This document shows, piece after piece, positions 33,272-41,780 of a stretch of DNA of 64,000 bases. The stretch comes from the human T2T-CHM13v2.0 reference genome, Homo sapiens. The stretch's first letter is position 1. Every line of letters starts with the position of its first letter. The DNA lies in assembly GCF_009914755.1 (NCBI RefSeq), contig NC_060927.1, one strand, 5' to 3'. The position numbers and the translations under genes were made by a program. Under the pieces are notes generated by a model, which was not told where the DNA came from, made no database searches, and saw only the letters and a program-made list of their open reading frames with translations.

Positions 33272-33598
33272 TTTTTTTTTTTTTTTTTGAGACAGAGTCT
33301 TGCTCTGTCGCCCAGGCTGGAGTGCAGTGGTGTGATCTCGGCTCACTGCAAGCTCCGCCCCCTGGGTTCACGCCAGTGTCCTGCCTTCACGCCAGTGTCC
33401 TGCCTTAGCCTCCCGAGTAGCTGGGTCTGCAGGCGACCGCCACCTCTCCCCGCTAATTTTTTTTTTTTTTTTGTATTTTTAGTAGAGACGGGGTTTCACC
33501 ATGTTAGCCAGGATGGTCTCGATCTCCTGACCTCGTGATCTGCCCGCCTCGGCCTCCCAAAGTGCTGGGATTACAGGCGTGAGCCACCTTGCCCGGCC
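33272..33598 (-). mobile_element. AluY with a 19-bp internal tandem duplication
   Basis: Y-type diagnostics (CTGCAAGCTCC, GTTCACGCCA, TTAGCCAGGATGG); perfect 19-bp TSD TGTGCTTATAAATATTTCT at 33253-33271 and 33599-33617. Confidence 0.96.
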
Positions 33599-40322: not shown

Positions 40323-40525
40323 ATCTCACTCTTAGAACACTTCTTTTCTTCTCTAAGAGTAAGTGTTTTCCAATTATACTGCCTATTTTGCGGTCCAAGC
40401 CCCTATTCTTGCTTTCCCTCAATGTTTCTCGTCTTCCCAGATGAATCCAGAAACCACAGGTCCCCAGTGGTACCTTGGCACTGTGAGAGTCACCTGAAAA
40501 CTACCTTTAAAAAGTCAATGGCCAA

Positions 40526-41329
40526 GCCGGGCGCGGTGGCTCACACCCGCAACCCCAGCACTCTGGGAGGCCGAGGCGGGTGGCTTCCCTGAGCTCGGGA
40601 GTTCGCAGCCAGCCTGGGCAACACGGCCAAACCCCGTCGCTACTAAAATGCAAAGGACCAGCCGGGCGCGATGGCGGGCGTCTGTGGTCCCAGCCAGCGG
40701 CGAGGCTGAGGCGCGGGAACTGCGTGACCCCGGAGGCGGAGGTCGCAGTGAGCAGAGGCCGCCGCACTCCAGCCCGGGCGACGGAGCGGCGAGGCTGAGG
40801 CGCGGGAACTGCGTGACCCCGGAGGCGGAAGTCGCAGTGAGCAGAGGCCGCCGCACTCCAGCCCGGGCGACGGAGCGGCGAGGCTGAGGCGCGGGAACTG
40901 CGTGACCCCGGAGGCGGAAGTCGCAGTGAGCAGAGGCCGCCGCACTCCAGCCCGGGCGACGGAGCGGCGAGGCTGAGGCGCGGGAACTGCGTGACCCCGG
41001 AGGCGGAGGTCGCAGTGAGCAGAGGCCGCCGCACTCCAGCCCGGGCGACGGAGCGGCGAGGCTGAGGCGCGGGAACTGCTTGACCCCGGAGGCGGAGGTC
41101 GCAGTGAGCAGAGGCCGCCGCACTCCAGCCCGGGCGACGGAGCGGCGAGGCTGAGGCGCGGGAACTGCGTGACCCCGGAGGCGGAAGTCGCAGTGAGCAG
41201 AGGCCGCCGCACTCCAGCCCGGGCGACGGAGCGGCGAGGCTGAGGCGCGGGAACTGCTTGACCCCGGAGGCGGAGGTCGCAGTGAGCAGAGGCCGCCGCA
41301 CTCCAGCGCGGGCGACGGAGCGAGACTCC
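40526..41329 (+). mobile_element. GC-hyper-enriched Alu carrying an internal tandem array
   Basis: Starts GCCGGGCGCGGTGGCTCAC, has a left arm, linker and right arm, and ends AGCGAGACTCC; substitutions against consensus are mostly A/T to G/C. Confidence 0.95.
40696..41318 (+). repeat. Alu-right-arm minisatellite: 7 x 89 bp
   Basis: Units start at 40696, 40785, 40874, 40963, 41052, 41141 and 41230. Only 3 variable positions; 68/89 G+C and 12-13 CpG per unit. Confidence 0.98.
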
Positions 41330-41559
41330 TCGCGGGCAGCGGGGTAGTGGGGGCGGGGGGGGGCGCGGGGCAGGGCTTGGGGGAGGCCAAAGGCGACCTC
41401 TGAGCTCTTGTCCTTACCCTGGGAGAGTATGGAACTCAGAGAAATCATCTGACCCGGGTAATGTATGACAACAAGCAGGAAAGCTTTGCTTGAGAAAAAA
41501 AATGTCTTGTTTTAAATGCTGAGGCTTTGGGACCACAGTTTCATGATGAACAAACATTC

Positions 41560-41780
41560 ACTGAACCCCCTACCTTATGCCAGAGGCTTTTCCATAATTA
41601 TCTCCTTTAATTGTCACAAAAAAACTCGGCAAGTGTCAGAGTTATTGCCATGCTACAGAAGAAACATCGAGACTTAGAGAGGTGGGACAGCTTTGCCGAG
41701 ACCACACTGAAGAGCGTGGTAAGTGGCAGAAGAGACCTTAAGAGCCAGCTTTGTTCAGCCTGCAGGATGCTCTCTCCACC
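41560..41780 (-). mobile_element. MIR (CpG-retaining)
   Basis: TATGCCAGAGGC...CAGAAGAAACATCGAGACTTAGAGAGG...CTTTGCCGAGACCACAC...GGTAAGTGGCAGA. Confidence 0.6.

What the first reader, a model, noticed from the sequence alone, without database searches (positions are those of the whole stretch)
40526..41400. Alu evolving in reverse: pervasive A/T-to-G/C substitution and CpG gain
Normal Alus lose CpG by methyl-C deamination, as the other Alus in this window show. Against the recalled consensus this one changes CCTGTAATCCC to CCCGCAACCCC, CACTTTGG to CACTCTGG, AACATGGTGAAA to AACACGGCCAAA, TCTCTACT to TCGCTACT, ATACAAAAATTAGCC to ATGCAAAGGACCAGCC, GGCAGGAGAA to GGCGCGGGAA, GGTTGCAG to GGTCGCAG, GCCTGGGC to GCCCGGGC and GACAGAGC to GACGGAGC. 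Both T>C and A>G occur on one strand, plus A>C and T>G. Inference: this fits intense, local (~1 kb) GC-biased gene conversion at a long-lived recombination hotspot, combined with germline hypomethylation. A possible self-reinforcing loop is hotspot, then CpG island, then open chromatin, then tandem amplification.
Basis: partly seen in the sequence, partly recalled or inferred. Interest (0 to 1): 0.85.

Follow-up and report, generated by a model that had tools for sequence, protein, structure and literature searches.

The report
GC-converted Alu turned CpG-island minisatellite
An old Alu repeat near the tip of chromosome 3 has had about a third of its A/T bases replaced by G/C, and part of it was then copied seven times in tandem, making a CpG island beside a predicted non-coding RNA start; it is a striking example of a kind of locus already described in humans.

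Summary
Window 40526-41384 is one S-type Alu on the + strand. Its 89-bp right-arm segment is repeated 7.0 times (40696-41322) and its A-tail is now 43 of 51 G/C.

I compared it with a consensus built from 58 other Alus of the same genome. The non-repeated 259 nt carry 32 weak-to-strong (W>S) changes on 95 A/T sites. That is 7.5 times the rate in 31 S-type control Alus. There are only 9 S>W changes (Fisher P=2e-17). CpGs number 29, against 22 ancestral.

No other genomic copy shares the changes, so a GC-rich source subfamily is not supported.

The four W>S classes rise together. CpG and GpC gains are equal. TpG/CpA sites are not preferred. This fits a fixation bias (GC-biased gene conversion, gBGC) better than CpG-directed repair or selection.

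Non-CpG S>W changes are not clearly depleted. A continuous strong bias is therefore excluded; the bias must have been episodic and very strong, or mutagenesis contributed.

The hotspot, germline hypomethylation and feedback-loop parts of the reading could not be tested here.

The kind is known: BGC islands, CpG beacon clusters, HAQER CpG Beacons and Alu-derived minisatellites. Interest is moderate.

The parts
40520..40525 (+). Candidate 5' target-site duplication GGCCAA, preceded by the A-rich TTT|AAAAAG target
   Evidence: The same 6-mer lies directly after the tail at 41385-41390. In 141 of 2000 shuffles a match of 6 or more appeared somewhere, so the support is weak.
40526..40644 (+). Alu left monomer, starting at consensus position 2
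   Evidence: Alignment to the consensus. A sub-threshold Metazoa_SRP match covers 40526-40642 at 43.6 bits, like an ordinary Alu of the window at 48.2 bits. W>S is 6 of 21 and 12 of 36 W sites in the first two quarters.
40645..40660 (+). Remnant of the A-rich linker, now AAAATGCAAAGGACCA
Evidence: Reading.
40661..40695 (+). Start of the right monomer, before the array
   Evidence: Alignment. A sub-threshold mir-1268 match (an Alu-typical hit) covers 40659-40710.
40696..41322 (+). Minisatellite: 89-bp unit x 7.0, derived from right-arm consensus columns 171-266 and bounded by AGCG at both ends
   Evidence: TRF gives period 89, 7.0 copies, 98% matches, no indels. The units differ only at unit positions 29, 46 and 79. 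Mean pairwise difference is 1.33 per 89 nt.
41319..41333 (+). Last 15 nt of the Alu body (AGCGAGACTCCTCGC)
41334..41384 (+). Former poly-A tail, now G-rich (G 36, C 7, A 4, T 4), with many G-runs
   Evidence: Control Alus have an A-run at this place (consensus).
41385..41390 (+). Candidate 3' target-site duplication GGCCAA
41373..41718 (+). Exon 1 of predicted lncRNA LOC105376922; its start lies inside the G-rich tail
   Evidence: Hub annotation (a predicted model only). A canonical donor G|GTAAGT is read at 41718/41719.

Best explanation
An S-type Alu inserted here by ordinary L1-mediated retrotransposition. In place, it then underwent a strong, very local, direction-biased replacement of A/T by G/C. 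The most likely cause is GC-biased gene conversion around a double-strand-break site inside or beside the element, in the male-recombining subtelomere 0.47 Mb from the 3p end.

About a third of all A/T sites in both arms, and most of the A-tail, became G/C. CpGs were kept or restored, and 16 new ones arose simply as a by-product.

After most of these changes, an 89-bp right-arm segment was duplicated between two AGCG sites, one of which the substitutions had created. It expanded to seven units by slippage or unequal exchange, which multiplied the CpG count to 114. The resulting CpG island and G-rich tail now coincide with the start of a predicted lncRNA.

Shown: the anatomy, the W>S excess, its uniformity along the element, its spectrum, the uniqueness of the locus, and the order of substitution before amplification.

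Inferred: gBGC as the cause, its episodic nature, and promoter function.
For: - W>S on 32 of 95 W sites against 138 of 3052 in 31 S-type controls. This is x7.45, or x8.9 after multiple-hit correction.
- All four W>S classes are raised together: 10/15/4/3 against 67/52/13/6, chi-square P=0.29.
- There is no TpG/CpA preference: 11 of 32 against 14 of 63, P=0.23.
- CpG gains are 16 and GpC gains 14, ratio 1.14. Random placement gives 1.23. The preprint PMC12687773, section 10 as read, reports 1.08 for phastBias tracts.
- CpG transitions are 3 against a control mean of 14.2, P=4e-4.
- W>S is even along the element: 6/21, 12/36, 9/23, 5/15. The non-repeated left arm is therefore as affected as the array.
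- W>W is 1 against 1.13 and non-CpG S>W is 6 against 9.9, so the element is as old as the controls. It is not a young CpG-rich Alu.
- The tail is 43 of 51 G/C. L1-mediated insertion needs an A-tail (established knowledge), so the change came after insertion.
- No other genomic copy exists.
- All 27 local Alus are ordinary.
- The location is subtelomeric (hub coordinates).
- Published models predict GC-biased substitution hotspots of up to about 20x (Duret and Arndt 2008, passages).
Against: - Non-CpG S>W changes are not significantly depleted: 6 against 9.87, ratio 0.60, CI 0.22-1.32, P=0.14.
- A continuous bias strong enough for the W>S excess (B 6-9) predicts 0.03-0.36 S>W changes, and 9 are seen.
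- Fitting both needs episodes with B about 11-21 for 40-80% of the element's life (my arithmetic). That is above the average hotspot value of B=5-6.5 and the short hotspot lifespans quoted.
- S>S changes are raised: 9 against 2.5, P=0.0012, or 6 on the conservative count. gBGC does not predict this.
- The footprint stops close to the Alu edges. Flanks are 0.45-0.47 GC with 2 CpG per 150 bp.
- The recalled PRDM9 13-mer is absent from the element; the window's 2 matches lie elsewhere.
- No recombination, methylation, polymorphism or ape data were available.
Confidence: 0.58

Rival explanations
1. Biased mutation rather than biased fixation. The open, unmethylated, G-quadruplex-prone or break-prone state of the locus raises the local mutation rate with a W>S and S>S spectrum. 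Possible routes are error-prone synthesis during break repair, or aberrant TDG-initiated base-excision repair. Ordinary drift then fixes the changes.
For: Non-CpG S>W is close to normal, x0.60, P=0.14. S>S is raised x3.6, P=0.0012. This is what an added mutational input would give and what a pure fixation bias would not. Several changes are clustered within a few bases, for example five in seven bases at consensus columns 170-176. Rapidly evolved human regions are reported to have raised mutation rates (PMC13689511, passages). TDG-driven TpG/CpA>CpG mutation has been proposed for CpG islands (PMC4041421, abstract).
Against: The W>S spectrum does not differ from the neutral one (P=0.29). TpG/CpA sites are not preferred: 11 of 32 against 14 of 63, P=0.23, with a similar odds ratio in controls. 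New CpGs from W>S are not in excess, 14 against 12.5 expected, P=0.34. W>W is not raised, 1 against 1.13. CpG transitions are strongly depleted, which a mutator alone does not explain.
Confidence: 0.2
2. Selection for GC or CpG content. The element was recruited as a promoter or regulatory island, and CpG-creating changes were favoured, as proposed for HAQER CpG Beacons.
For: The start of a predicted lncRNA lies in the G-rich tail (hub annotation). The CpG island criteria (thresholds recalled) are met. A preprint reports CpG-over-GpC gain of 1.46 in 107 such human loci, two of them at CHL1 (PMC12687773).
Against: Here the CpG:GpC gain ratio is 16:14 = 1.14, no more than random placement gives (1.23, P=0.66). 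W>S is spread evenly over both arms and the tail, not concentrated in motifs. The lncRNA is only a predicted model.
Confidence: 0.07
3. The changes predate insertion or were copied in. Possible sources are a GC-rich Alu source subfamily, an RNA-edited transcript, or non-allelic conversion from a GC-rich paralogue such as a 7SL gene.
For: Alus have about a million paralogues, and interlocus conversion is known. It could have restored some consensus CpGs.
Against: The best non-self matches in the whole genome are 81% for the element and 84% for the unit. The element is itself 78% identical to the consensus and the unit 75%. Only 40 of 9434 and 40 of 2359 candidates were scored. The tail plus flank is unique, 17 of 17 candidates scored. 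A>G and T>C both occur on one strand, so single-strand RNA editing fails. A G-rich tail cannot prime L1-mediated insertion (established knowledge). The sub-threshold SRP match is no better than that of an ordinary Alu, 43.6 against 48.2 bits.
Confidence: 0.03

Closest known systems
Biased-gene-conversion CpG islands and GC-biased substitution hotspots (Cohen et al. 2011 as summarised in review PMC8286816; Duret and Arndt 2008, PMC2346554; Dreszer et al. 2007, not held)
   Same: A short, subtelomeric, CpG-rich tract made by clustered W>S substitution. CpG gain is a by-product of GC gain.
   Different: Here the ancestral state is known from the Alu consensus without any outgroup. The tract is confined to one SINE and was later amplified in tandem. 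BGC islands are described as highly methylated with rapid deamination, whereas here few CpG transitions are visible (3 against 14.2).
Human CpG beacon clusters (Bell et al. 2012, PMC3469460) and HAQER CpG Beacons (Abeykoon et al. 2025 preprint, PMC12687773)
   Same: Extreme local CpG gain, enrichment near telomeres, overlap with gBGC tracts, and links to new regulatory activity. Both papers list loci at CHL1, the nearest protein-coding gene.
   Different: Those sets are defined by human-specific gains against apes, which I could not test. Their coordinates are in supplements I could not open, so identity with this element is unknown. HAQER sets are reported as depleted in SINEs. Here the CpG:GpC gain ratio is 1.14, not the 1.46 reported for the beacons.
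Alu-derived minisatellites (Jurka and Gentles 2006, recalled and as cited in Ahmed and Liang 2012, PMC3389668)
   Same: A tandem array of part of an Alu, bounded by a short direct repeat (AGCG) and amplified in situ. AluS is a common source.
   Different: Seven units is unusual: the mean for AluS-derived arrays is 2.31, and 8.11% of arrays from older AluS subfamilies have more than 3 units. The unit is heavily GC-converted; the passages I read do not describe this.
Regional W>S drift of Alus in regions of high male recombination (Webster et al. 2005, seen only as cited)
   Same: The same direction of change, the same use of Alu consensus for polarity, and a subtelomeric setting.
   Different: That effect is a weak, megabase-scale trend. 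Here 27 of 27 neighbouring Alus show no such bias, and one element shows a 7.5-fold excess.

Membership tests
Alu SINE, S-type | Dimeric 7SL-derived body alignable over its full length to the Alu consensus | tested here: met
   208 of 266 consensus columns are identical. BLAST gives 80% over 270 nt to the general consensus. The sub-threshold Metazoa_SRP hit resembles that of an ordinary Alu.
Alu SINE, S-type | Subfamily-diagnostic positions | tested here: inconclusive
   S-type states at columns 64/65, 77, 87, 94 and 218. Y-like states at 99, 152, 162 and 199. G at 93, as in the older cluster. The Y-like states are themselves W>S or CpG-creating, so they may be convergent.
Alu SINE, S-type | 3' poly-A tail and target-site duplication | tested here: not met
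   The tail is G 36, C 7, A 4, T 4. Only a 6-bp GGCCAA repeat flanks the element. I read this as decay after insertion, not as non-membership.
CpG island (Gardiner-Garden and Frommer thresholds, recalled) | Length over 200 bp, GC over 50%, CpG o/e over 0.6 | tested here: met
   875 bp, GC 0.747, o/e 0.96.
gBGC tract / BGC island | Polarised excess of W>S over S>W substitutions | tested here: met
   32:9 against 138:745 in controls, P=1.8e-17. The conservative count is 27:7.
gBGC tract / BGC island | A bias blind to mutation type and dinucleotide context (all W>S classes raised; CpG and GpC gains equal) | tested here: met
   Spectrum P=0.29 and context P=0.23. 16 CpG gains against 14 GpC gains. 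Power is low (n=32).
gBGC tract / BGC island | Depletion of S>W substitutions | tested here: inconclusive
   CpG transitions are x0.23 (P=4e-4). Non-CpG S>W is x0.60 (P=0.14).
gBGC tract / BGC island | Coincidence with a meiotic recombination hotspot, and skewed derived-allele frequencies | not testable with these tools
   No recombination maps or population data are held. The recalled PRDM9 13-mer is absent from the element, which decides nothing.
Alu-derived minisatellite | Head-to-tail copies of part of an Alu, bounded by a short direct repeat | tested here: met
   89 bp x 7.0, 98% matches. AGCG lies at 40696 and again at 41319.
Alu-derived minisatellite | Length polymorphism (VNTR) | not testable with these tools
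   Only one assembly is held.
HAQER CpG Beacon / CpG beacon cluster | [quoted passage not shown] | not testable with these tools
   No ape sequence is available.
GC-rich Alu source subfamily | Other dispersed copies share the substitutions | tested here: not met
   The best non-self match is 81% or 84%. The tail and flank are unique. Only 40 candidates were scored in each of the first two searches.

The most novel reading that the evidence does not exclude
A single Alu became a self-sustaining, PRDM9-independent ('default', promoter-like) recombination hotspot. Early W>S conversion of its body and A-tail made an unmethylated CpG- and G-run-rich patch. That patch attracted meiotic breaks, which drove further gBGC for a large part of the element's life (B about 11-21 for 40-80% of the time). 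The process ended in minisatellite formation and a new transcription start. This would be a natural example of a hotspot that escapes the usual self-destruction, and it can be dated base by base because the ancestral sequence is known.
Probability: 0.15. Interest if true: 0.65.

Novelty: new member of a known kind. Interest (0 to 1): 0.36.

Why it matters
The Alu consensus supplies the ancestral state of every base, so this locus is a clean natural record of how far a local W>S drive can take a sequence. GC rose from 62% to 72-75%, a poly-A tail became poly-G, and CpG increased in net.

The locus also shows two things. First, the CpG gain needs no CpG-specific force. Second, W>S excess combined with near-normal S>W puts numerical limits on the strength and duration of the drive.

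If ape genomes show when the burst and the amplification happened, the locus could test whether long-lived, sequence-intrinsic hotspots exist in a PRDM9 species. It could also show whether such drives create promoters from junk. It lies in the CHL1 region, where similar 'CpG beacon' elements have been linked to gene regulation.

Tried and rejected
- PRDM9 13-mer (motif recalled): 0 matches in the element and 2 elsewhere in the window, against 0.81 expected by chance. Uninformative.
- TDG-type context preference: not seen.
- CpG-targeted gain: not seen.
- A 5'-to-3' gradient of W>S within the Alu body: not seen.
- 'Late onset after full CpG decay' scenario: disfavoured. It predicts 9.3 visible CpG transitions and 3 are seen, P=0.017.
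- Continuous B=6-9: rejected.
- GC-rich subfamily, paralogue or edited-RNA origin: rejected.
- Rfam hits (Metazoa_SRP, mir-1268, MEG8_3): all below the gathering score and Alu-typical or noise.
- Average-linkage clustering of the control Alus failed to split subfamilies. It was replaced by k-means on polymorphic columns.
- A longer target-site duplication (17 nt) aligned by eye matches at only 7 of 17 positions. I claim only the 6-mer.
- Dreszer et al. 2007 is not held.
- Literature searches for LOC105376922 and for Alu + weak-to-strong + gBGC + CpG island + VNTR returned 0 papers. This covers only the open-access library searched.

Full report
**Anatomy**

Window 40526-41384 is a single Alu on the + strand. 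It is made of these parts:
- The left monomer starts at consensus position 2 (40526).
- A decayed A-rich linker lies at about 40645-40660.
- The right monomer starts at 40661.
- From 40696 an 89-bp stretch of the right arm (consensus columns 171-266) is repeated head to tail. TRF reports 7.0 copies, 98% matches, no indels, 40696-41322.
- The array begins with AGCG, and AGCG follows it again at 41319.
- The last 15 nt of the Alu body follow (41319-41333).
- Where an Alu carries its A-tail there are 51 nt composed of G 36, C 7, A 4, T 4.
- GGCCAA lies directly before the Alu (40520-40525) and directly after the tail (41385-41390). It is a weak candidate target-site duplication: 141 of 2000 shuffles give a match of 6 or more somewhere.
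- The hub annotation puts the start of predicted lncRNA LOC105376922 at 41373, inside the G-rich tail. Its first exon ends at a canonical G|GTAAGT donor.

**The reference and the controls**

No sequence from memory was used. I searched the window's own genome with the element and fetched 200 kb of chromosome 3 around the window.
- I collected 67 full-length Alu matches.
- I dropped the element itself and the 8 copies lying in four loci (L008-L011), which are segmental duplicates of L007. This left 58 copies: 27 local, 17 bystanders in fetched flanks, and 14 top hits.
- K-means on polymorphic columns gave three groups of 8, 31 and 19 copies. By my recollection of Alu subfamilies their consensus sequences look J-like, S-like and Y-like.
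- The element carries the S-type state at columns 64/65, 77, 87, 94 and 218, and Y-like states at 99, 152, 162 and 199.
- I used the S-like consensus as ancestor. I also made a conservative count of sites that differ from all three consensus sequences.

**Check of the observation**

Over the 259 nt that include only one repeat unit, the counts are as follows:

| Class | Element | Mean of 31 S-like controls |
|---|---|---|
| W>S | 32 on 95 W sites (T>C 15, A>G 10, A>C 4, T>G 3) | 4.45 (range 1-11) |
| S>W, non-CpG | 6 | 9.87 |
| CpG transitions | 3 | 14.16 |
| W>W | 1 | 1.13 |
| S>S | 9 | 2.52 |

- The conservative count is W>S 27, S>W 7, S>S 6.
- The W>S rate per site is 7.45 times that of controls, or 8.9 times after multiple-hit correction.
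- Fisher 32:9 against 138:745 gives P=1.8e-17.
- Of 22 ancestral CpGs, 13 are kept and 16 are new, making 29.
- GC is 0.722, against 0.51-0.645 in all 58 controls.
- Young Y-type controls reach 28 CpG. It is therefore the W>S excess and the GC content that are unique, not the CpG number.
- W>W and non-CpG S>W counts show the element is about as old as the controls, not a fresh insertion.
- The whole region 40526-41400 has 114 of the window's 520 CpGs, GC 0.747 and o/e 0.96.

**Is it a subfamily or a copy?**

It is neither.
- Whole-genome searches found only the locus itself. After it come ordinary Alus, at 81% or less for the whole element (45 matches; 40 of 9434 candidates scored) and 84% or less for the unit (40 of 2359 scored).
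- The tail plus flank is unique (17 of 17 candidates scored).
- The element is itself 78% identical to the consensus, and the unit 75%. The best hits are therefore simply consensus-like Alus.
- The scoring of only the best candidates is a limit of this test.
- A G-rich tail cannot have served L1-mediated insertion (established knowledge), so at least the tail changed in place.
- A>G and T>C occur on the same strand, so single-strand RNA editing does not fit.

**How local is it?**

- All 27 Alus in the window and within 100 kb either side have W>S 1-14 together with many S>W changes. This includes the nearest copies at 33289 and 52902.
- The 150 bp on each side of the element have GC 0.45-0.47 and 2 CpG each. 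The next 250 bp upstream are at 0.29.
- The drive is therefore centred on the element and fades within about 150 bp.

**Fixation bias or mutation bias?**

Four tests favour a context-blind fixation bias:
- The four W>S classes are raised in proportion to the control spectrum (chi-square P=0.29).
- Transitions at TpG/CpA are not preferred: 11 of 32 against 14 of 63, P=0.23. The controls show a similar odds ratio.
- New CpGs from W>S number 14, against 12.5±2.3 under random placement (P=0.34).
- CpG gains (16) equal GpC gains (14). The ratio of 1.14 compares with 1.23 expected here, 1.08 reported for phastBias tracts and 1.46 for HAQER CpG Beacons (PMC12687773, section 10 read).

W>S is also even along the Alu body (6/21, 12/36, 9/23, 5/15). 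The left arm, which lies outside the array, is as affected as the right arm, so the tandem state is not the cause.

Two results go the other way:
- Non-CpG S>W is only mildly and not significantly low: x0.60, CI 0.22-1.32.
- S>S is raised: 9 against 2.5, P=0.0012, or 6 on the conservative count. Some of these depend on how nearby indels are aligned.

I used the standard fixation formula (Nagylaki, as cited in Glémin et al. 2015, introduction read).
- A constant B of 6-9 would give the W>S excess. It would leave 0.03-0.36 S>W changes where 9 are seen (P=2e-10 or less).
- Fitting both needs a bias that was 'on' for 40-80% of the element's life with B about 11-21. This is my inference.
- That exceeds the average hotspot value of B=5-6.5 and the short hotspot lifespans quoted.
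- Two points soften this. Duret and Arndt predict roughly 20-fold substitution hotspots at the most intense sites. Ancestral populations were also larger (recalled).
- A scenario of normal CpG decay followed by late restoration is disfavoured: 9.3 visible transitions expected, 3 seen, P=0.017.
- I conclude that gBGC is the best single explanation. It must have been unusually strong, recurrent and tied to this sequence. A mutational contribution is not excluded.

**Order of events**

- All seven units share every derived state except at three positions (unit 29 G/T, 46 G/A, 79 C/G). They differ pairwise by 1.5%.
- The substitutions therefore preceded the amplification, or were homogenised after it.
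- The upstream AGCG that bounds the array does not exist in the consensus; it was made by the substitutions.
- This fits the direct-repeat route to Alu minisatellites attributed to Jurka and Gentles in Ahmed and Liang 2012 (passages).
- The G>A variant at unit position 46 is an S>W change now present in 3 of 7 units. S>W variants can therefore spread within the array.

**What is known**

- W>S drift of Alus with male recombination: Webster 2005, seen only as cited.
- GC-biased substitution hotspots: Duret and Arndt 2008, passages.
- BGC-type CpG islands: Cohen 2011, as summarised in a review passage.
- Telomere-biased human CpG beacon clusters, 57% of which overlap top BGC regions and which are mostly hypomethylated in sperm: Bell 2012, sections 7 and 8 read.
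- 107 HAQER CpG Beacons attributed to gBGC plus selection: Abeykoon 2025 preprint, abstract, section 10 and passages.

Together these cover this kind of locus. Both beacon papers name CHL1, the nearest protein-coding gene, whose 3' end lies about 73 kb upstream by the hub's coordinates. Their coordinates are in supplements that I could not open. The main text gives none, so I cannot say whether this element is one of those loci. HAQER sets are reported as depleted in SINEs generally. Searches for LOC105376922 and for a five-term combination on Alu, W>S, gBGC, CpG island and VNTR found no paper in the library searched.

**Verdict**

- The gBGC reading is partly supported by internal tests.
- The hotspot, hypomethylation and feedback-loop parts remain untested.
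- The 'long-lived continuous' form is contradicted by the S>W count.
- The locus is a new and unusually clean member of a known kind.

Noticed in passing
window 40526-41400: The hub's list of the 20 longest masked stretches (141-648 bp) does not include this 875-bp Alu-derived region. NCBI's masking therefore seems to miss it or break it into short pieces. The window file carries no case information (0 lower-case letters), so I could not check.
   Followed up: partly
L007-L011 (G000 C16: 80.22-80.45 Mb and 75.77-76.00 Mb): Five loci carry the same pair of Alus with identical match statistics, and two are byte-identical. They form a segmental-duplication family. The older Alu of the pair (L007 at 1206) has the highest control W>S count (19), with 16 CpG and GC 0.61.
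   Followed up: no
window 40659-40710: The sub-threshold mir-1268 match (an Alu-derived hairpin family) scores higher in the GC-converted element (48.9 bits) than in an ordinary Alu of the window (33.1 bits). Both are far below the gathering score of 83.
   Followed up: no
window 41334-41384: The former A-tail now holds many runs of 3-9 G. It contains a GGGGCGGGG-like stretch (a GC-box by my recollection) and fits a G-quadruplex pattern. It lies directly at the annotated lncRNA start, 41373.
   Followed up: no
window 40696-41318: The seven units fall into four types by three variable positions, in the order a b b a c b d. This interspersed pattern could serve as a variant-repeat map if other haplotypes were available.
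   Followed up: partly
CHL1 locus, upstream of the window: Published work reports one extreme CpG beacon cluster (Bell 2012) and two HAQER CpG Beacons (HAQER0297 proximal, HAQER0202 distal) at CHL1. The same subtelomere therefore holds several GC/CpG-gain loci.
   Followed up: partly
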